From: Pirellula sp.
Lineage (GTDB): Bacteria; Planctomycetota; Planctomycetia; Pirellulales; Pirellulaceae
Direction: 5' to 3'
Assembly: GCA_046344995.1 (NCBI GenBank)
Contig: JBKDKR010000092.1
Coordinates: 27,396-91,395, forward strand
Length of the DNA stretch: 64,000 bases
Shown: positions 47,347 to 55,240 of the stretch, piece by piece
How positions within the stretch are numbered: position 1 is the first letter of the stretch
Layout of the letters: every line of letters starts with the position of its first letter
Translations under genes and position numbers: made by a program
The notes under the pieces: model-generated
Seen by the model: the letters and a program-made list of their open reading frames with translations, nothing else
The model's database searches: none
What the model was told of the DNA's origin: nothing

Positions 47347-47411
47347 GCCCAACGAATGATAGACCAATTGAGACTTTCGCTGTCCACCCAAAGTTGTCTC
47401 AACGAGAGGGT

Positions 47412-47984
47412 CTATTCGCCAGCGGTCGCGTGGTGAACCAACTCACGATACGTCTGCCGAAGTGTTGGGTGCAAAAAACGAGCGAATGAACCATCCAGTT
47501 TGCGAACGGCAATCAATTCGACAACGTCAGCGAAGTCTTTGTGGGTCCGTCGCAGATTGCTTTGCCCACACGCAAGCTTCATCTCGATCAATCTCGAAAG
47601 ACGCACAACGGACAAGCCATCTCGCTCTTCAACATTTGATTCTCCAACCGGTTCCGGAATTTTGACTTCCGCACCCTTGCCGGCTCGCTCACCTGCCATA
47701 AGAAACTGCACCGGTATGCCAGACGAACTTCGAAACTCCTTTAGCTCTTCATCCCACACAAAAGATTCGCCGAGAAATAGGTCTTTCACTGCGGCAGCGT
47801 CGATCGGGTTGATGATCAGATCGAGGTCCGTCGTATTACGTTGATACCCATGCAAACAAACGGCGACTCCACCACAAATCGAGTGTGGAATATTGGACTG
47901 TTTTAAGATTTGGTGTGATCGCAACGCGATCTCCCAAAGAGACTCGTTTCCAAGCATTGCGTAAACCTGCGCCGTTGTTGTCAT
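47412..47984 (-). CDS. Pol-beta-like nucleotidyltransferase family protein
   Basis: GGVAVCLHGYQRNTTDLDL; KLA...R...D..D; RBS GAGGAG. Confidence 0.75.
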   Translation of the reverse strand: MTTTAQVYAMLGNESLWEIALRSHQILKQSNIPHSICGGVAVCLHGYQRNTTDLDLIINPIDAAAVKDLFLGESFVWDEELKEFRSSSGIPVQFLMAGERAGKGAEVKIPEPVGESNVEERDGLSVVRLSRLIEMKLACGQSNLRRTHKDFADVVELIAVRKLDGSFARFLHPTLRQTYRELVHHATAGE

Positions 47985-48042
47985 TATCTCCTCATGTTTG
48001 CTAATAGTATAGCACACGAAAGCCATGCTTTTGCTATCAGAC

Positions 48043-48111
48043 GTAGCCGACCTGGGCAAAGATTGGACGTATTGCTGGCGTGCTATCCAAAGTCTTGGCG
48101 ACTTCGGCTAC
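48043..48111. repeat. GTAG-footed REPIN-like inverted pair
   Basis: GTAGCCGACCTGGGCAAAGATTGG ... CCAAAGTCTTGGCGACTTCGGCTAC. Confidence 0.65.
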
Positions 48112-48133
48112 CGGATGTAACCGTTCTACTCTG

Positions 48134-49672
48134 TTAATGAAAGATGTCGCGGTCAAGCATGCGGTAATTGATGGCTTCTTCGATGTGATGAGGCTCAATC
48201 GACTCACTGGATTCCAAATCCGCGATCGTCCTGGCGACTCGCAAGATCTTGTCATGAGCTCGCGCCGATAACCCCATATCGGTCACGGCCGCTCGCATCC
48301 GCTCCCGTTGAATAGACCCTAGTTTGCAATGCTCTCGAATCTCGCGACTACTCATCTTAGCATTGGATCGAGTCGTTGACTTCGCAAACCGCTCGTCTTG
48401 CATCGATCGCGCCACATCGACCTCAGCACGCATCTCCGCACTACTGCGCCCCGGGGGGCCAGCGGACAGTTCGTTAAACGACACAGCTGGCACCTCGATA
48501 TGAATATCAATTCTGTCTAAGAGTGGGCCCGAAATACGGCCCATGTAGCGCTCGATTTGAGGTGCGGTGCAGTTGCATGTTCGGCGCGGGTCTGTCCGAT
48601 AACCGCATGGGCAGGGATTAAGAGCAGCCACCATCATGCACTGTGCGGGAAAAGTCGTACTCCTCATGGCTCTCGAAATGGTGACAACACCATCTTCGAG
48701 AGGTTGTCGCATAACTTCCAGTGTCTTGCGATTGAATTCTGGTAGTTCGTCTAAAAACAAAACCCCATGATTTGCTAACGATACCTCGCCCGGTGCAGGA
48801 GGGCTGCCACCACCGACAAGTCCCGCATCACTTATTGTGTGGTGTGGCGATCTAAAGGGCCGTTGGGCCATGAGCGCTTGGCCGGTTTGCAATCGACCTA
48901 AGGCAGAATAAACACGCGTGGTCTCGATCGACTCCTCTGCGGACAAGACAGGCAGAATAGATGGCAGACGTTTGGCTAACATAGTCTTGCCCGACCCAGG
49001 AGGTCCTAACATGAGGAGATTATGGGAACCTGCGGCTGCGATGGTGAGCGCACGCTTGGCCATATCTTGTCCACGTACGTCGCTAAAGTCGATGTCGTAT
49101 TGCGAGAACGTCGCAAACAACTCATCCAGTCGAGAGGGAACGGGATCGATGTCGAGCTGACCATTTAAGAAGCCGACGGCTTCTTGCAAGGTATGAACAG
49201 GTATGATCTCAAGCGATTCGACAACCGCTGCTTCTTGTGCGTTCACCGCAGGCACAATCATCCCTTTGATGCCAGGCTGCTTAGCGGCAGCCATAGCCAT
49301 TGAGAGGATTCCCTTGACGCTTCGCATGTGCCCTTCGAGGGATAGTTCACCCACGGCAGCGTATTGGCTAAAGCGATTGGCATCGAGCTGATTGGAGACG
49401 GACAGTATACCGAGCGATATAGGCAGGTCAAAGCTGGAGGCTTGCTTTGGGAGCTCAGCGGGTGCTAGGTTTATAACAATCCGATCATGAGGAATCATAA
49501 AGCCAGCGTTGTGCATAGCACGTTCCACACGATGGGTACTTTCTCGGACTGCTTGTTCGGGGAGACCTACCAAGACGGTTTTGGGTAGAGCAGCGGGGGA
49601 GAGGTCAACTTCTACTTCGACCGGTAGAGCTTCGATTCCAAGCAAGGAATAAGTATGGAGCTTGGCCAACAT
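48134..49672 (-). CDS. comM: ComM/YifB Mg-chelatase-like AAA+ helicase
   Basis: INLAPA, GPPGSGKT, FRSPHH, LFLDELPEF, NPCPCG, LLDRID, LSARAHDK. Confidence 0.95.
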   Translation of the reverse strand: MLAKLHTYSLLGIEALPVEVEVDLSPAALPKTVLVGLPEQAVRESTHRVERAMHNAGFMIPHDRIVINLAPAELPKQASSFDLPISLGILSVSNQLDANRFSQYAAVGELSLEGHMRSVKGILSMAMAAAKQPGIKGMIVPAVNAQEAAVVESLEIIPVHTLQEAVGFLNGQLDIDPVPSRLDELFATFSQYDIDFSDVRGQDMAKRALTIAAAGSHNLLMLGPPGSGKTMLAKRLPSILPVLSAEESIETTRVYSALGRLQTGQALMAQRPFRSPHHTISDAGLVGGGSPPAPGEVSLANHGVLFLDELPEFNRKTLEVMRQPLEDGVVTISRAMRSTTFPAQCMMVAALNPCPCGYRTDPRRTCNCTAPQIERYMGRISGPLLDRIDIHIEVPAVSFNELSAGPPGRSSAEMRAEVDVARSMQDERFAKSTTRSNAKMSSREIREHCKLGSIQRERMRAAVTDMGLSARAHDKILRVARTIADLESSESIEPHHIEEAINYRMLDRDIFH

Positions 49673-49932
49673 GGGAGCGTCTCAACGAAAAGGTGCTTAG
49701 CAGCGACAAACAAGTTGCAAAATCAATGGGCCAATAGTTTAACACGACAACGGTGGTCTGTGTTCGATGGGCCTCATAAAATGGGCTTCGCTCCAAAGAA
49801 GCTTTCAAAAGATCGGCAAAAAGATGTGGGGGCAAAAAGATGTAAGAACTCTATTTGCCGATTGTCCTTTTAGTTCTTCAAGTTAGAAGCAAAGATCAAA
49901 TGGGAAGTACTCTTGATCGAGACTTTGAATGT

Positions 49933-50163
49933 TCATCCGATTGATAATGGTAAATCTCGTTCTTCCATACGCCAGGCTGCATAGGCCAAGCATTGGTCAA
50001 TATCCTGATCTTCAAGGTGAGGGTAGGCTTTAAGAATTTCCTCGCGAGATCGACCCGTCGCTAGAAGGCCTAGGATGGTTGACACGGTTATTCGCATACC
50101 GCGAATACACGGTTTGCCACCCATCACAGACGGGTCAAAGGTAATACGATCGATTTGAGCCAT
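49933..50163 (-). CDS. DUF433 family protein (antitoxin-like)
   Basis: RITFDPSVMGGKPCIRGMRI...YPHLE...I...L.YA. Confidence 0.88.
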   Translation of the reverse strand: MAQIDRITFDPSVMGGKPCIRGMRITVSTILGLLATGRSREEILKAYPHLEDQDIDQCLAYAAWRMEERDLPLSIG

Positions 50164-50423
50164 TTTCGAATTTGAATTTCTTGGCACGGTTAATCTGCGG
50201 GCAGTGTCTAACCCCCAGTATAGTTTAGCTAATGATTAAGCTGAAGGGTAAAGACACAGTAGTTTTCTAAGGCTTTGGTATTGCTACGACTACAGGCACC
50301 TCTCCGAGATCCAATTAGTTCCATTTCCCGTCGTACTATCACGGTGACGCAAACGGAAAGATCGAAACGAGTCACACGGGCTAGGTTGGAAGCGGCAACG
50401 CGACTAAGAAAACAGTCTACGTA

Positions 50424-51626
50424 GTGGGGCATGATCAGATTTCACAAACCATCTATCTTCCGGAAGCAGGTGCTGGTGGTAGTTGGGATGAAGGTGAAAC
50501 CAACATGTTCGGCACCGACGGACACGGCAGCGTCCGCGTTCTTTACGATCTCGCAGGGGTCATAGCCCGCGATGACCAGCAGCGAATGCAAGTCTATTTC
50601 TACGACGCCTATGGCAACCTTCTTGCCCTCGGCGGTTCCTCACTAACGTCTAGCACCTTACCCCTCACAACTTACCTCTACAGTGGTGAAGCGTTTGACT
50701 TCCGCATTGGTCAGCAGTACTTGAGAGCACGCTGGTACGACGCCAGAACAGGCCGTTTTGATCGCCTCGATCCATTCGCAGGAAACTCGCAGGATCCTCA
50801 ATCCTTTCACAAATATGGATATGTACATGGCGATCCGATACAAGGTATCGATCCTTCGGGGATGTTCTTCGGCGTAGCTGGTTTAGCTATCGGACTGGGA
50901 GGCGCGTACGCAGGCCGGAAGTACGACTTTAATGCGATGATAACAGGAGGCAACCTAATGTTCTTGTTTACGACTTTCGGCATCGCACCAGCTATGGGAA
51001 TCGCCTTTGCCAATAGCTATTACAACTCGCTTACGGAACCGATTTTCGTTGGGAATCGACCGGATTTTGACTCGAACTCGCCGCGGCATCTCTGGCAGAA
51101 AAACATTGAGGATACGTTAATTGCAAGAGCGCGTGCAAACGGTGGAACGCAGGCAGATGAAATTGCAGCTAGGGAAATTGCCAGAAGATATGTCGACCTC
51201 GTAAGCGATAGAGGCCATCGCTTCCATGGGCTTCAAGGCTCGAATGCACAAATGTTTGGTTATGGGGGGAATTATGGCTGGTTAGAAAATTGGTATTCTG
51301 GCAAGCGTACGGGAGATCAGAAAGACCAGTGTAAGTGCTATGCATGGGCAGATGCAATTCATCGTGAAATCGTCGGTTTAACGCATGGTACCCACTGGAA
51401 GGTTACGCGGTATGTTGATGCGACCAAGTCCTATGATCCTTTTGCATCGCTGTTTGGTTGGTTAACACACAATTTCGTTACAATTGACTTTGCGAAAAAT
51501 GAAAACGAACTAGCCGCAATTCCAGATTTTGTTCTCGACCCATGGGCGACAGGCCGACCGGATATCTATGAAGGCTCAACCTTTAATCGCGCGTGGCCTT
51601 TCGCTTCAGCAACGGACAGACTCTAA
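50424..51626 (+). CDS. Orphan Rhs C-terminal module (core end plus toxin domain)
   Basis: YDAYG, YSGE, QYLRARWYDARTGRF, DPIQGIDPSG; upstream core interrupted by a TAG. Confidence 0.88.
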   Translation: MGHDQISQTIYLPEAGAGGSWDEGETNMFGTDGHGSVRVLYDLAGVIARDDQQRMQVYFYDAYGNLLALGGSSLTSSTLPLTTYLYSGEAFDFRIGQQYLRARWYDARTGRFDRLDPFAGNSQDPQSFHKYGYVHGDPIQGIDPSGMFFGVAGLAIGLGGAYAGRKYDFNAMITGGNLMFLFTTFGIAPAMGIAFANSYYNSLTEPIFVGNRPDFDSNSPRHLWQKNIEDTLIARARANGGTQADEIAAREIARRYVDLVSDRGHRFHGLQGSNAQMFGYGGNYGWLENWYSGKRTGDQKDQCKCYAWADAIHREIVGLTHGTHWKVTRYVDATKSYDPFASLFGWLTHNFVTIDFAKNENELAAIPDFVLDPWATGRPDIYEGSTFNRAWPFASATDRL

Positions 51627-51632
51627 CGCAGT

Positions 51633-52082
51633 TTGAAGTTTAACCAACTTATGATTGATCCCTACATTCCTCCGAAATTTAGAACTCCGTCTCCACGCTT
51701 TACGATCCCATCCCGCGTTTTGTATTGTTATTCGACGTTTGCATTTTGCTTTCTCGTCTTGGCATGGCTCTATCTGCCTTATCTGCGAGCGAACGATGTG
51801 TTGTTAGGTGCTCTATTAATCGCCGCATTTGCTAGTGGTGCTTCAAGGGTATTAATAGGGAACAGAATGGTGTTACCGTCACTCATGGGAATCGTAGCCG
51901 CAGCAGTTTGGGTAAGGCTTCCTTACCAATGGTATGATTTATTAGCACAGTCAACTTCCCTTTACCGTGTTCACCATTTGGTTTTTGATACCGGACTTCT
52001 TGCTTTGCCGATCGAGACTCTTGTGTTCACTTTCATCACTCGTCATTTCTCGCTCTTGAGCGTTGAAAAAAGTGAGCGATAA
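51633..52082 (+). CDS. Membrane protein, candidate cognate immunity
   Basis: 3-4 hydrophobic helices; begins 6 bp after the toxin stop. Confidence 0.6.
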   Translation: MKFNQLMIDPYIPPKFRTPSPRFTIPSRVLYCYSTFAFCFLVLAWLYLPYLRANDVLLGALLIAAFASGASRVLIGNRMVLPSLMGIVAAAVWVRLPYQWYDLLAQSTSLYRVHHLVFDTGLLALPIETLVFTFITRHFSLLSVEKSER

Positions 52083-52225
52083 CAAAAACTGTTACGGGCC
52101 GAATTGTTGCGAATTTTGGCGCGGACCAATTCGACCTCACAAGCCGAGTCGATATTCTTGGGACCAGTGCTTGTTGGCTGTTACGGATCTCATGATGTAC
52201 GCCCCCGACCTCGTCGGTTTTGATC

Positions 52226-52424
52226 CCCTAGGGATTGAAGCTTGTAGCCGGAGGTTGAGCGAATGCGACACCTCCTGTTGAGATGCGCACGGGTTTTGCA
52301 TCCCGGTAGGGATGCCAGCCATGTGTATGTCTCTGCCATCCTTTCTGGATGGGAAGAAGGATTGGGATCGAATCCAGGGGTGTCGCTAGCGCTCAACCCC
52401 TGGCTACAATCTATAAACCCTAGT
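52226..52424. repeat. GTAG-footed REPIN-like inverted pair
   Basis: TGTAGCCGGAGGTTGAGCGAATGCGACACC (52243-52272) versus the reverse complement of 52379-52408; central GCATCCC/GGGATGC hairpin. Confidence 0.8.
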
Positions 52425-52473
52425 GTGAGACAAAGATTAGATTCGCCATAGAACACAAACGCCGAGGTTAGAC

Positions 52474-53037
52474 ATGAGAGTGTTTCGCGTTAGTATCGAC
52501 TACGGAAAGAGCGGCAATGAGCTTGCAGATGAGATCAACGGGTTTGGCTTTTCATTTACGAGTCCGGAGTTGCTCGAAGAGCAATTGTTAAACCATACTG
52601 CTGAAGTCGAATCCAATGGGCGGACTTGCCATTTTCTGCCGTATGGCGCGGTGGACAAATGTATCCATGAAAGTGCTATCAAGCTACTACCGCCACTTGA
52701 TGCTAAACTGGTAAAGATCAATCTAGATGCGATTGAGATGGAGAAATTTCAGCATCCCTTCAATGAGGGAGCTTGGTTTGGTGTCCGTCCGACGCAAATT
52801 GTTGAAATGCATCCGACAGCAAAAGTTACATACTTTACTGGCCCTGGAATCAAGGAGAAGATGTTTCGTAACGTAAAGACTTACGTCTTTGAGGGCAAGA
52901 AACTGGACAAGCTTACTCTGTTCTGGATTGTTTCACATGGGGCGGAATTGTTTGCAACGGATCAGTTCGAAGCTGCCTATCGAAAAGCAGGACTAACAGG
53001 CTTGAAATTTGTTGACACCAACTGCAAGATTGTTTGA
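52474..53037 (+). CDS. Imm11 (DUF1629)-like immunity protein
   Basis: C-terminal LFATDQFEAAYRKAGLTGLKF. Confidence 0.6.
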   Translation: MRVFRVSIDYGKSGNELADEINGFGFSFTSPELLEEQLLNHTAEVESNGRTCHFLPYGAVDKCIHESAIKLLPPLDAKLVKINLDAIEMEKFQHPFNEGAWFGVRPTQIVEMHPTAKVTYFTGPGIKEKMFRNVKTYVFEGKKLDKLTLFWIVSHGAELFATDQFEAAYRKAGLTGLKFVDTNCKIV

Positions 53038-53068
53038 TGCAGGATACGCAAGAGTACGAATAAATGAT

Positions 53069-53448
53069 GGTCCATCCGGGATTACCGTGGGTCAAGGTCT
53101 GGTCCACCGGAGTAGAAAAAGATTCCTGTTTTGAAATTCTCTCTATTGCGAAAGCCGCCTGCTCCTCTCTTGATGGACATGATCTTACTGTTGATGCCTT
53201 CGACCACTGAATTCGTTATCCCGTGAGTACAGTAAGTTACGATGTTATCAATTCGCTTCTTCAAAGTGCGTGCGAGCCTCTTCATCGGTTCACCTGAACA
53301 GCAATCTCTGCGGCATGCACGTTAAGCTTCACTTCCTTGACCGTCCAAGGGGTCTTTATTCCTGGTAAGTGCTGTATAATTCTTTGTCTTCCATGGGGTC
53401 TCCTTTGACCCAAAATCATACCAAACCCACGGTAATCCCGAATGGACC
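53069..53448 (-). mobile_element. Internally deleted ISL3-family element (380 bp)
   Basis: 23-bp terminal IRs with 1 mismatch; transposase N-terminus MEDKELY...PWTV (frameshifted) joined to the C-terminus TNSVVEGINSKI...GFRN. Confidence 0.9.
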
Positions 53449-53927
53449 ATATTCCTCTTGAAGACGACTTGTATTTCCGAGGTGTGGGTAAGCGATTTAG
53501 CGTAAAAGAACTGCAAGAATTGCCGAATTCTAATTTACCCATCGCATATCTTGAATTCCTGTCGAAAAACAATGGTGGTACGCCCAACAAACAGGAATTT
53601 CGCGTACCTATCTGTGGTGTTGCAGTGTTAGTCAACCTACTTTGTGCGGATGTGTTCGGATTTCGTGCTTCAGAAAAGCCCCTTGAACACAGTCTTTCCT
53701 GGTTTGCATATAGGTGCGGGAAGTATGTGCCAGAAGATTGGATGATTATAGGGGTGGTCAACAGAGATGATTTTTTGGTGTTACACAGAAGCGTGGGATC
53801 TATAGGGATTGTCTACTGGGAGCAGGTTATGGAATTGCTGGATAAACCATCGGATTCAGTTGTAGTAATTGTTGCACCCACAATTCTCGCGTTCCTACTA
53901 ATGCTGGAAGAATTTATCGATGAATGA
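53442..53927 (+). CDS. SMI1/KNR4 family immunity protein
   Basis: LP..YLEFL..NNGG.P...VPEDWMIIG...DFLVL...IVYW. Confidence 0.8.
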   Translation: MDHIPLEDDLYFRGVGKRFSVKELQELPNSNLPIAYLEFLSKNNGGTPNKQEFRVPICGVAVLVNLLCADVFGFRASEKPLEHSLSWFAYRCGKYVPEDWMIIGVVNRDDFLVLHRSVGSIGIVYWEQVMELLDKPSDSVVVIVAPTILAFLLMLEEFIDE

Positions 53928-54178
53928 TGTGTTTACGTCCGGATGAGAATCGCATTTTTAGGCCGAATTACTGTCTCTAAAGAATTGCGAGCGTTTGGCA
54001 AAGCGATAATCATCGAATGCGACTTACTCGAAAGTTAATCTCACTCCCGAGTTAGAAATTCGTGGGATTCTTGGGATTTTCAAGCTTTGGGTACCCCCTT
54101 TGATTGCTCGGTGTAAAATAAAAAACGTTCATGGCAGCGTCGTAGGAACATCCGCTCGTCATGTCCTCGGTTTCTCCA

Positions 54179-54422
54179 GACCCAGGAGGTCCTAACATGA
54201 GGAGATTATGGGAGCCAGCGGCGGCGATGGTTAGAGCACGCTTGGCCATGTCTTGTCCACGTACGTCGCTAAAGTCGATGTCGTATTGGGAGAACGAGGC
54301 AAACAACTCATCCAGTCGAGAAGGAACGGGATCAATATCCAGTTGACCATTGAGAAAGCCGACTGCTTCTTGTAACGTATGAACAGGTATGATCTCAAGT
54401 GATTCGACGACCGCTGCTTCTT
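54179..54422 (-). pseudogene. comM: Diverged internal copy of comM (codons about 146-227)
   Basis: 244 bp collinear with 48993-49236; 22 mismatches by manual count, one amino-acid change. Confidence 0.93.
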
Positions 54423-54504
54423 CCATGGACCTGTTTTCGCTCCGCGACGTATCGTTGCTGCGAAGATCAGATTGTGCAGCATCGGAGAGAAGAACACGAA
54501 ACAC
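54423..54504 (-). pseudogene. 5' stub of a ParE/RelE-like toxin fused in frame to the comM copy
   Basis: GTG start overlaps the upstream TAG; FRVLLSDAAQSDL resembles a ParE N-terminus. Confidence 0.6.
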
Positions 54505-54728
54505 TATGTTCCGGTCCGTTTTGCAAAATTCATTTCTTCTTGAAATGCCTTGTCAACCTCATCGAGTGGAGTCACTCGGCCATCGCGTACGTCATCAATA
54601 CCAACACGAATTGCCGCAAGATCCGCAGCCTGCTTGATCGTTTTATTAGCATACTCCTCAACGCTAGAAAAACCGGCTTCGGCAGCCAACTTGATAGCAG
54701 CGGCTTCGTGTACGATATGAACTTGCAT
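54504..54728 (-). CDS. Small ParD-like antitoxin
   Basis: 74 aa; AAIRVGIDDVRDGRVTPLDEV tail typical of ParD/addiction antitoxins. Confidence 0.65.
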   Translation of the reverse strand: MQVHIVHEAAAIKLAAEAGFSSVEEYANKTIKQAADLAAIRVGIDDVRDGRVTPLDEVDKAFQEEMNFAKRTGT

Positions 54729-54966
54729 AGTGAGTAGCTTCCTTTAGAGGTGCGCCGGTCCTTTATTCTGTCACCCGAGGGATTAGTTGTCAAAGTCAGC
54801 TTTTCACTCTTTCGTCGTGCCCAAGCTCTGCCAGACTTTGTATCGATCCTTCGATTCGTGCGAAAGATGCGAGACTCATTTTTCTGCGTTCGATGTTTCT
54901 GCCATATCACGGTTTTTGTTCTTTTTGGACGGCGAGAAAACAATCATAATGCGAATCGGCAGCTCA

Positions 54967-55240
54967 CGATTAGTACCTAGGGGGATTGGCGTTCGGGTTG
55001 CTAATGCTTCGGGGACGTTTACTGGCCATCGATCCCTTTGCTCGCGCAGCGGGCTGGTATTACAAGCCCGAAAGCGCGAGGTGAGGGATTGCCCCGTTCT
55101 AATTCAAGCCTAAATCGCGCGAACCGTTGATGCGATCCTTCGCATGCGATTAGCACCTAGGGGGATCGGCGTTCGGGTTGCTAATGCTTCGGGGACGTTT
55201 ACTGGCCATCGATCCCTTTGCTCGCGCAGCGGGCTGGTAT
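54967..55240. repeat. 94-bp direct repeat with 180-bp period containing REP arms
   Basis: 54967-55060 = 55147-55240 with 2 mismatches; opposite arm TACAAGCCCGAAAGCGCGAGGTGAGGGAT at 55061. Confidence 0.9.

What the first reader, a model, noticed from the sequence alone, without database searches (positions are those of the whole stretch)
48984..54422. Toxin/immunity cassette bracketed by intact comM and a foreign-looking comM copy that breaks at the Walker A codons
Seen: 54179-54422 is collinear with comM 48993-49236, in the same orientation. By manual alignment there are 22 mismatches in 244 bp and only one amino-acid change (T to S). The copy ends at GPPGSG, continuing ET instead of KT. About 5 kb of DUF433, Rhs-CT, immunity and IS cargo lies between the two. 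Known: comM is a recurrent target of integrases, serine recombinases and Tn7-like elements. Inference: the near-purely synonymous divergence means both copies evolved inside functional comM genes. One model is an element that integrates at the Walker A site and brings its own replacement comM 5' half, so the host keeps comM. The alternative is that comM acts as a homology anchor for importing polymorphic-toxin cassettes. No recombinase remains in the interval.
Basis: partly seen in the sequence, partly recalled or inferred. Interest (0 to 1): 0.78.

Follow-up and report, generated by a model that had tools for sequence, protein, structure and literature searches.

The report
Relic cassette at comM insertion hotspot
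A 247-base leftover of an older comM gene front half marks where mobile DNA once cut into comM at its ATP-binding codons. The gene stays whole because the 5-kb toxin/immunity insert carries a second complete front half, a variant of a known kind of scar rather than a new system.

Summary
Window 54176-54422 equals comM nt 437-683 (48990-49236): 247 bp, 23 mismatches, no gaps, 21 synonymous and 2 non-synonymous changes.

It is not a one-off or an assembly chimera.
- The same breakpoint, followed by the same 46-100-nt non-comM "end", recurs on two other contigs of this genome and in two sister species.
- A relative (G009) holds a decayed comM 3' piece that starts within 5 nt of that breakpoint.
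- G009 also carries a complete large-serine-recombinase (LSR) island splitting comM about 20 nt upstream.
- A genome of another genus (G318) shows the same layout, displaced 5' copy, 6-kb cargo and intact comM, with a decayed LSR in the cargo.

Best reading, in two steps:
1. A site-specific insertion into the Walker-A hotspot created the junction.
2. The junction, a whole comM 5' half with about 109 bp of upstream DNA, and the cargo now form a recombinase-less cassette. It is flanked by direct comM repeats and exchanged among sister species by homologous recombination.

Support: 5' halves and flanks are 94-98% identical between species whose background is 73-90%. dS is 0.25 in the 5' half against 0.79 in the 3' half. 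Cargo differs between species.

The scan noted similar comM scars in other genomes. The mechanism of step 2 is inferred.

The parts
48134..48989 (-). comM 3' part (nt 684-1539), inherited with the chromosome
   Evidence: Belongs to the intact 512-aa ComM ORF. It is 87.7% identical to G003 with dS 0.79. The downstream flank is syntenic with G048.
48990..49672 (-). comM 5' half (nt 1-683), the exchanged or replaced half that ends at the Walker-A junction
   Evidence: It is 94.4% identical to G003 and 93.6% to the C1 copy, with dS 0.245 against 0.786 for the 3' half.
49673..49781 (-). 109 bp upstream of comM that travels with the 5' half
   Evidence: Homology with G000:C1 runs 48990-49781 = C1:10635-11425 at 92.9% and stops there.
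49933..50187 (-). DUF433 gene (antitoxin-like), cargo
   Evidence: Pfam PF04255, E 6.5e-27. No counterpart at this place in G003.
50294..50518 (+). Conserved Rhs-core remnant that opens the orphan toxin module
   Evidence: Matches C1:13027-13150, G048:C349 and G003:C104. It encodes ...GHDQISQTIYLPEAGA, as do the Rhs genes on C1 and G048.
50424..51626 (+). Orphan Rhs tip: end of the Rhs core plus a variable C-terminal toxin domain
   Evidence: TIGR03696 Rhs_assc_core at aa 60-147, E 2.9e-14, above the cut-off. The motif ...DPIQGIDPSGM precedes the tip. The tip is absent from G003 and G048.
51633..52082 (+). 149-aa membrane ORF directly after the toxin tip, putative immunity gene
   Evidence: Position and hydrophobic sequence. 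No family match. The role is inferred.
52097..52437 (.). Copy of a dispersed repeat (repeat A)
   Evidence: About 85% identical to C46:35652-35995, with partial copies on C1, C36, C11, C97 and others.
52474..53037 (+). 187-aa ORF of unknown family, cargo
   Evidence: ORF list. No Pfam or NCBIfam match.
53082..53285 (-). ISL3-family transposase C-terminal remnant
   Evidence: PF01610 E 7e-16, profile positions 186-238 of 240 only.
53442..53927 (+). SUKH/SMI1_KNR4 gene, the type common among polymorphic-toxin immunity proteins
   Evidence: PF09346 E 4.4e-6 and PF14568 E 5.4e-5.
54130..54175 (-). Conserved non-comM 'end' after the break, putative element-side half of the old attachment junction
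   Evidence: Shared with C1:10589-10634, C36:208261-208312, G003:C232 and G048:C349. A 10-nt inverted repeat (54155-54164 / 54195-54204) is centred on the junction.
54176..54422 (-). Displaced comM fragment (nt 437-683, aa 146-228), now dead
   Evidence: 247 bp, 23 mismatches, 21 synonymous and 2 non-synonymous against the intact gene.
54052..54504 (-). Chimeric ORF: ParE-like N-terminus, ComM aa 146-228 and a tail read from the 'end'
   Evidence: ORF list. The same fusion occurs in G003:C232 (127 aa).
54504..54728 (-). ParD-like small gene. Its stop overlaps the start of the chimeric ORF. It forms the left conserved flank.
   Evidence: ORF list. About 96-97% identical to G003 and also present in G048:C349. 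No significant family hit, so the name rests on sequence pattern only.

Best explanation
The interval is the relic of mobile DNA that entered comM at its Walker-A codons. The explanation has two steps.

Step 1 is the better supported part. A site-specific element, most likely carried by a large serine recombinase like the other comM invaders of this family, recombined within TCGGG (comM nt 679-683). This created the hybrid junction 'comM...GPPGSG | end'.

Step 2 is inferred. The junction became packaged in a recombinase-less unit together with a complete comM 5' half, about 109 bp of its upstream DNA and part of the element's cargo. This resembles an aberrantly excised, lambda-dgal-like defective element. 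Such a unit can integrate only by RecA-type single crossover with the comM 5' half of a host.

That crossover leaves three things in order: a truncated 5' copy next to the old upstream neighbours, then the cargo, then an intact comM. The host keeps comM, and the cargo sits between direct comM repeats.

The repeats and the flanks now serve as homology arms. Through them the cargo (Rhs toxin tips, immunity-type and toxin-antitoxin-type genes) and the 5' half itself are swapped among sister species.

In this window a later deletion fused the displaced copy, from nt 437, to a ParE-like gene stub.
For: Shown:
- Same break plus a homologous 'end' at five places in three species: C92, C1, C36, G003:C232 and G048:C349. 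The junctions also appear in separate public records.
- G009 holds an inverted, decayed comM 3' fragment whose homology starts at nt 679. It overlaps the 5' fragments' ends by TCGGG and is preceded by a non-comM arm.
- LSR islands split comM at nt ~663-666 in G009 (766-aa LSR) and at aa ~69-78 in G253, and probably in G362, where the two comM parts lie ~13.5 kb apart on one contig (content not examined). In G222 the parts are on two contigs.
- G318, in another genus, has a 744-bp 5' copy (98.9% identical) ending at the G009 site, with an element-side arm matching G009's in 8 of 9 nt. It also has 6 kb of cargo with a decayed LSR, then an intact comM.
- The C1 copy is the circular-permutation form: upstream DNA, comM 1-683 and the 'end' in one piece. 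It lies away from the comM locus.
- Horizontal exchange. The C1 copy and the G003 copy differ at 5 of 247 sites. Over 692 bp (copy, 'end' and downstream repeat) they are 96% identical. ParD-ParE' is ~96-97% identical between the species and the 5' halves ~94-95%. Neighbouring chromosomal DNA is 73-90% identical.
- The two halves of comM differ in history: 5' dS 0.245 against 3' dS 0.786, p = 2.5e-8.
- Mosaic copies.
- Cargo differs between species.
- No recombinase in the interval.

Literature: Mg-chelatase/ComM-type genes are the target of 12.4% of predicted site-specific LSRs (PMC10083194). Phage WO sr1WO integrates there (PMC9203015).
Against: - No intact element of the 'end' type and no recombinase specific for it was found in 67 genomes of the genus or in one metagenome scan. 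The LSR assignment for this junction is by analogy only.
- The aberrant-excision step and the RecA-dependent integration are inferred.
- The best change-point in G000-G003 divergence is nt 791, with a support interval of 687-806. Nt 683 fits slightly worse (LR 23.1 against 27.9).
- Both independent cases keep only a short stretch upstream of comM: 109 bp here, and some 45-80 bp in G318 (boundary read by eye). The model explains this only by selection for a working, compact unit.
- The genome is a MAG. The G003 bin holds contigs 100% identical to two G000 contigs, so assigning C36 and C67 to this organism is not certain.
Confidence: 0.55

Rival explanations
1. Gene-end replacement by the element's own integrase. 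An integrative element has an attachment site consisting of a full comM 5' half plus promoter, joined to the 'end'. It recombines site-specifically at the Walker-A core, displaces the host's 5' half and supplies its own. Serial integrations leave a row of displaced halves. This is how dusA-, prfC- and icd-targeting islands work.
For: - The layout fits exactly: displaced fragment, 'end', cargo, short promoter region, new 5' half.
- All fragments end at one base.
- C1 has the expected free-form junction.
- The divergence step lies at or just after nt 683.
- A 10-nt dyad is centred on the junction.
- Precedent: dusA islands replace the 5' end and leave a remnant (PMC4482086).
Against: - No integrase lies at any of the five 'end' junctions.
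- The relic right-hand junction at the same core in G009 has a non-comM arm.
- Complete islands in the genus split comM without replacement.
- In G318 the recombinase remnant is an LSR. By established knowledge of LSR directionality, an attL-like site (B arm plus P' arm) does not recombine with attB.
- A replaced segment of 683 + 109 bp is far longer than in the known cases.
Confidence: 0.2
2. Pure homologous or illegitimate recombination scar with no site-specific origin. A single chance illegitimate join at nt 683, for example homology-facilitated illegitimate recombination during import of a toxin cassette, created the junction. All copies descend from it, and the Walker-A position is a coincidence.
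For: - All 'end' junctions are homologous, so one founding event suffices.
- Homologous exchange between copies is evident.
- No recombinase was found.
Against: - An independent 3' fragment in G009 starts within 5 nt of the same position, with an unrelated partner sequence.
- Two other element types hit comM within 20 nt.
- The G318 parallel carries an LSR remnant.
Confidence: 0.12
3. Artefact or in-situ duplication. Either the copy is a metagenome assembly chimera between co-occurring strains, or it is a local tandem duplication that diverged in place.
For: The genome is a MAG with 109 contigs. The bins of G000 and G003 share identical contigs. Reads could not be checked.
Against: - Both edges of the copy are novel junctions rather than switches inside comM.
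- The ParE'::comM' junction and the comM'::end junction recur in G003, in G048 and in separate public records.
- Divergence in place would be neutral, yet 21 of 23 changes are synonymous.
Confidence: 0.04

Closest known systems
Large-serine-recombinase islands and prophages that integrate into comM / Mg-chelatase-like (YifB) genes (Durrant et al. 2022, PMC10083194; Wolbachia phage WO sr1WO, PMC9203015)
   Same: Same target gene and the same most-conserved part of it. A hybrid junction of gene sequence plus an element arm is present. Complete LSR islands occur in relatives (G009, G253), and a decayed LSR occurs in the parallel case G318.
   Different: Here comM is intact. No recombinase and no right-hand junction are left. 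A whole second 5' half with its promoter region stands at the other end of the insert. The crossover position (nt 679-683) differs from that of the complete islands seen (nt ~663-666 and aa ~69-78).
Integrative islands that replace the end of their target gene: dusA-specific islands (PMC4482086), SXT/R391 in prfC, and e14/phage 21 in icd. The last two are cited from my own knowledge.
   Same: The gene stays functional because the insert supplies a new end. The old end is left as a remnant on the far side. The differences between old and new ends are largely synonymous, as in icd.
   Different: Those elements carry a tyrosine integrase and replace tens to about 165 bp. Here 683 bp plus 109 bp upstream are duplicated, the break is at an internal catalytic motif, and no integrase is present.
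Defective specialised-transducing elements (lambda dgal type) integrated by homologous recombination, giving a partial duplication or 'heterogenote'. This is classical phage genetics, cited from my own knowledge.
   Same: Host DNA from one side of the attachment site, the hybrid junction and only part of the element travel together. Integration by host recombination duplicates the host segment and leaves the host gene intact. The direct repeats allow loop-out.
   Different: No phage or packaging is implied here. The cargo is toxin/immunity genes. Aberrant excision was not observed. This comparison describes how the cassette may work and is not a family membership.
Orphan Rhs / polymorphic-toxin tip-immunity arrays
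   Same: The module is 5'-truncated and keeps a piece of the Rhs core before a variable tip, followed by small genes. SUKH-type immunity genes are present. Arrays of such modules occur on C1.
   Different: The array is bracketed by comM repeats rather than lying behind a full-length rhs gene. The main rhs gene start on C67 lies 170 bp from another comM relic.

Membership tests
LSR-borne integrative element in comM | A large serine recombinase gene (Resolvase + Recombinase + Zn_ribbon_recom) inside the element | tested here: not met
   Pfam and NCBIfam scans of the interval's main ORFs found no recombinase. A PF07508 search of the genome finds LSR genes only on C90, C66 and C36:134 kb, far from any junction.
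LSR-borne integrative element in comM | The target gene is split into two parts flanking the element (attL and attR) | tested here: not met
   comM is an uninterrupted 512-aa ORF. Only a left-hand type junction exists.
LSR-borne integrative element in comM | Junction at a fixed position of a conserved sequence, with an element-side arm conserved among copies | tested here: met
   Five junctions share the break and 46-100 nt of 'end'. The G009 relic 3' fragment starts at nt 679.
Gene-end-replacing integrase islands (dusA, prfC, icd type) | Restored ORF plus a displaced remnant of the old gene end on the far side of the island | tested here: met
   Intact comM at 48134-49672 and a remnant at 54176-54422.
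Gene-end-replacing integrase islands (dusA, prfC, icd type) | A site-specific (tyrosine) integrase gene at the edge of the island | tested here: not met
   None in the interval. An integrase-like N-terminal stub beside tRNA-Arg on C1 had no family hit.
Tn7-like comM-targeting transposons (AbaR / Tn6022 type) | tnsABC/tniQ-type genes, a 5-bp target duplication and Tn7-type ends | tested here: not met
   No transposition genes except an ISL3 stub. The junctions show no 5-bp duplication and instead share a 247-bp direct repeat (792 bp for the C1 copy).
Orphan Rhs toxin-immunity module | Rhs-associated core domain ending in the DPxG[LM] motif, followed by a variable tip | tested here: met
   TIGR03696 at aa 60-147, E 2.9e-14, 53.3 bits against a cut-off of 32.5. 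The sequence ...GDPIQGIDPSGM is present.
Orphan Rhs toxin-immunity module | No N-terminal and YD-repeat body (truncated module), with a cognate immunity gene directly downstream | tested here: inconclusive
   The ORF starts inside the core, so truncation is met. The 149-aa ORF 7 bp downstream has no family match, and its immunity role is inferred from position.
Homologous-recombination (Campbell-type) cassette, lambda-dgal-like | Integration and excision depend on host RecA and on the duplicated host segment, not on a site-specific enzyme | not testable with these tools
   Only indirect evidence: direct repeats, a permuted junction on C1, mosaic copies and the lack of a recombinase.

The most novel reading that the evidence does not exclude
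A class of recombinase-free 'homology-anchored' cassettes. Defective remnants of comM-targeting islands have kept the hybrid junction plus a complete, promoter-bearing 5' half of the target gene. They use that half as their own integration arm, so they insert by host recombination without inactivating comM. In this way they ferry polymorphic-toxin, immunity and toxin-antitoxin genes between related Pirellulaceae-like species. The same outcome arose independently at two neighbouring sites of comM in two genera (the G000 clade and G318).
Probability: 0.35. Interest if true: 0.7.

Novelty: new variant of a known kind. Interest (0 to 1): 0.45.

Why it matters
comM is the commonest target of site-specific serine integrases, and insertion normally kills the gene. 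Here, and independently in another genus, the gene is whole again because a second 5' half came with the insert. The resulting repeat-flanked slot holds different toxin/immunity cargo in sister species.

If the cassette really moves by host recombination alone, two things follow. It would show how dead islands keep spreading cargo at no cost to the host. It would also explain why the two halves of a strongly conserved gene can have three-fold different synonymous divergence.

For annotation, it warns that short, synonymously diverged gene fragments near comM are insertion scars and not assembly errors.

Tried and rejected
- In-situ duplication followed by divergence. Rejected because 21 of 23 differences are synonymous.
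- Distant foreign origin of the copy. Rejected because all 5' halves of G000, G003 and G048 form one clade at most 34 of 247 differences apart, against 61 or more to other species.
- Identity of the 'end' with the arms of the G009 and G318 LSR elements. No similarity was found.
- tblastx of the window cargo against the G009 element and the G318 cargo. Nothing was found.
- Search for the 'end' junction in 67 genomes of the genus and in metagenome contigs. Only the same three organisms turned up.
- Search for the G318 junction in 201 genomes of the family. Only G318 itself was found.
- Attempt to define the ancestral comM neighbourhood. The downstream flank is shared with G048 only. G003 differs by a large inversion whose breakpoint abuts comM. 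In G021, G011 and G009, comM lies next to udk-sdhBAC. The upstream neighbour is a Ser/Thr kinase in G021, G009, G318 (copy side) and G000 (copy side). These kinases are only 27-38% identical outside the G021/G009 pair, so the synteny is suggestive only.
- C36 and C67 as the two flanks of one secondary insertion. This could not be tested, because the matching G003 contigs stop at the same repeats.
- The C67 comM relic as a second junction at nt 683. The alignment is solid only for nt ~585-660, so no claim is made.


Full report
**Observation.**
- comM lies on the minus strand at 48134-49672. It encodes 512 aa with ChlI, Mg_chelatase and Mg_chelatase_C domains.
- Window 54176-54422 is collinear with 48990-49236, which is comM nt 437-683. 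The match is 247 bp with 23 mismatches and no gap.
- The differences are 21 synonymous and 2 non-synonymous, with dS 0.48 and dN 0.011. Neutral decay would give so few replacements with P = 2e-11.
- The copy stops after ...GPPGSG and reads on as ETEDMTS....

So the sequence observation holds, and the copy spent its divergence inside a working comM.

**Anatomy of the interval, read in the comM sense from high to low coordinates.**
- A ParD-like gene at 54728-54504.
- About 25 codons of a ParE-like gene fused in frame to comM' (54422-54176).
- A 46-nt conserved non-comM 'end' (54175-54130).
- Then the cargo:
  - a SUKH/SMI1_KNR4 gene;
  - an ISL3 transposase stub;
  - a 187-aa ORF;
  - a dispersed repeat;
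  - a 149-aa membrane ORF;
  - an orphan Rhs tip whose Rhs-associated core domain is significant (TIGR03696, E 2.9e-14);
  - a conserved Rhs-core remnant;
  - a DUF433 gene.
- Then 109 bp of upstream DNA and the intact comM.

No recombinase is present. G+C in the cargo is 45-49%, against about 50-55% in comM and the DNA below it; the kinase side is 45-55%.

**More copies in the same genome.** A search of the whole assembly found three further pieces.
- G000:C1:10635-11316 is comM nt 1-683 at 93.6% identity, with one frameshift. The same 109 bp of upstream DNA is attached.
- C36:208228-208312 keeps about 30-48 nt of the Walker-A coding stretch.
- C67:2008-2081 keeps nt ~585-660. It lies 170 bp upstream of the start of a full-length Rhs gene.

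The C92, C1 and C36 pieces end at the same base. They continue with homologous DNA (GGAGAAACCGAG.ACATGACGAG...) for 46-100 nt. A 10-nt inverted repeat with 9 of 10 matches is centred on the junction. That is a weak, post-hoc hint of a recombinase site.

**Relatives.**
- Of 67 genomes of the genus, only G000, G003 and G048 carry this junction. A metagenome scan returned only records of the same organisms.
- G003 has the same ParD-ParE'::comM'(437-683)::end fusion. Both junctions of the copy are therefore reproduced in separate assemblies.
- Cargo is not shared. Apart from dispersed repeats, the IS and the Rhs-core piece, window 49782-54129 has no counterpart in G003 or G048.

**Identity levels are very uneven.**
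- Neighbouring chromosomal DNA is 73-90% identical between G000 and G003.
- ParD-ParE' is about 96-97% identical.
- The intact 5' halves are 94.4% identical.
- The G003 copy differs from the G000 C1 copy at only 5 of 247 sites. It differs from the positionally equivalent C92 copy at 30 sites.
- Three of those five differences are C92-like and lie at nt 495-519.
- The G003 copy therefore joins a C92-type left flank to a C1-type comM'/end/repeat module.

These are recombination mosaics, and the module has moved between species recently.

**Two histories within one gene.**
- Between the intact comM genes of G000 and G003, dS is 0.245 for nt 1-681 and 0.786 for nt 685-1536. dN is alike in both halves. 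Fisher p is 2.5e-8.
- A change-point scan puts the step at nt 791, with a support interval of 687-806. Nt 683 is only slightly worse, LR 23.1 against 27.9.
- Tree topology is not discordant, because G000 and G003 are sisters in both halves. The discordance is one of depth.
- Other species pairs of the genus also show steps near the middle of comM.

**The site is a real recombination hotspot.**
- The complete genome G009 has comM split by about 34.4 kb at ...NLLML|GPP (nt ~663-666). The insert carries a 766-aa large serine recombinase, and its arms form an inverted repeat.
- Inside that island, next to its left junction, lies an inverted, decayed comM 3' fragment. Its homology begins at nt 679 (TCGGGCAAGAC...) after a non-comM arm.
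- The 5' fragments of the G000 clade end at nt 683. The two kinds of fragment therefore overlap by TCGGG, as expected for the two products of one site-specific crossover.
- G253 carries an LSR island in comM at aa ~69-78. G362 has a ~13.5-kb gap between its two comM parts at the same place, not examined further. In G222 the two parts lie on separate contigs.
- Published work agrees. Mg-chelatase/ATP-dependent-protease genes are hit by 12.4% of predicted site-specific LSRs (PMC10083194), and phage WO sr1WO integrates there (PMC9203015).

**An independent parallel.** G318, in another genus of the family, has the following layout.
- A 744-bp copy of the comM 5' half plus roughly 45-80 bp of upstream DNA, 98.9% identical to the intact gene, lying 6 kb upstream of it.
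- The copy ends at the G009 crossover and continues with TAACCAGTT, where G009 has TATCCAGTT.
- The cargo holds a Doc toxin, a GNAT gene, an IS and a decayed LSR remnant.

So 'left junction, cargo, short promoter region, whole comM' has arisen at least twice, once demonstrably from an LSR element.

**Mechanism.**

*Step 1, a site-specific insertion that made the junction.* This is well supported by the evidence above. That the enzyme was an LSR is an analogy.

*Step 2, how comM became whole again.* This is inferred.
- By established knowledge of LSR directionality, an LSR reaction cannot deliver the 5' half. A site made of a gene-side arm and an element-side arm is an attL, and attL does not recombine with attB.
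- The G009 relic shows that an element using this core had a non-comM right arm.
- The simplest route is the one known from defective specialised transducing phages. An aberrant excision takes host DNA from one side (upstream DNA plus comM 1-683), the hybrid junction and part of the element. The resulting circle can then enter a naive comM only by a single homologous crossover.
- That crossover produces exactly the observed order and leaves comM intact.
- The C1 copy is the permuted circle-junction form of such a unit. It is 95-97% identical to the G003 comM-side DNA. It lies 3.6 kb from a tRNA-Arg gene and not at the comM locus.
- Afterwards the direct repeats and conserved flanks act as homology arms for swapping cargo. 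This explains the mosaics, the shallow 5' half and the species-specific cargo.

I rate it at 0.2.

**Caveats.**
- The genome is a MAG with 109 contigs.
- The G003 bin contains contigs 100% identical to parts of G000 C36 and C67. Those two contigs may be shared or mis-binned.
- C92 and C1 behave as one species: C1 core genes are 78% identical to G003 and those of C92 73-90%.
- No element of the 'end' type with a recombinase was found.
- The ancestral neighbourhood of comM could not be fixed.

**Verdict.** This is a real feature, not an artefact, and a decayed insertion scar at a known hotspot. The less common twist is that the target gene is kept whole by a duplicated 5' half, and that the scar now serves as an exchangeable slot for toxin/immunity genes. 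Earlier notes of this scan describe similar comM scars in unrelated genomes. I used them as leads and not as evidence.

Noticed in passing
window 54052-54728: A ParD-like gene is translationally coupled, by a one-base overlap, to a chimeric ORF made of a ParE-like N-terminus, ComM aa 146-228 and a tail. The fusion and the open frame are kept in G003 as well. Whether the product is made or has a role is unknown.
   Followed up: partly
window 47348-48133 and G000:C47:27711-28014: G000 and G003 differ by a large chromosomal inversion. One breakpoint lies directly downstream of comM, next to a ~70-bp repeat (48042-48111) that is dispersed in G000 and tandemly arrayed in G048 contigs. The other breakpoint lies on contig C47. 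G048 shares the G000 arrangement.
   Followed up: partly
window 54862-54930, 54967-55240, 52097-52437; G000:C1:10480-10513: Several families of dispersed short repeats are present, with tens of copies each. One 34-nt motif (CAATTCGGCCAAAAATACGACCACAATTCGGCCC) is 100% identical in at least 10 species of the genus and often lies at contig ends and between Rhs modules.
   Followed up: no
G000:C1:1-14978 (L005): An island beside tRNA-Arg(ACG) has an integrase-like stub. It holds three orphan Rhs tips, an ankyrin-repeat gene, an IS21 (IstA/IstB), a PIN gene and the full-length displaced comM 5' half.
   Followed up: partly
G000:C67:1-2125 (L006): The start of a full-length Rhs gene lies 170 bp from a 74-80-bp comM relic (nt ~585-660). 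The contig ends inside the Rhs gene, so its link to the orphan array on C1 is only a guess.
   Followed up: partly
G009:C1:2002122-2038121 (L037/L038): A complete 34-kb LSR island sits in comM and carries a defence-like set of genes: an SNF2 helicase, AIPR, a DNA methylase, a second small serine recombinase and an IS110-like gene. It also holds an inverted relic of a comM 3' fragment from an older insertion.
   Followed up: partly
G253:C1:4095268-4110041 (L098); G362:C154; G222: A second comM insertion site at aa ~69-78 is seen in other genera of the family. G253 carries a 644-aa LSR and about 30 nt of the gene is duplicated at both ends. In G362 the two parts lie ~13.5 kb apart (content not examined), and in G222 they are on separate contigs.
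   Followed up: partly
G002:C37, C75, C107 contig ends: comM is broken across contig ends at aa 281/282. Extra comM pieces (aa 243-295 and 273-320) lie at positions 3-146 and 82417-82575 of contig C107, perhaps its two ends (its length was not checked). This may be yet another island at a third site.
   Followed up: no
G003:C118:34-3762 and G003:C7:2370-6071: Two contigs of the G003 bin are 100% identical to G000:C36:204499-208227 and G000:C67:2299-6000, although the two genomes are otherwise 73-90% alike. Either the bins share contigs or large segments were transferred very recently.
   Followed up: partly
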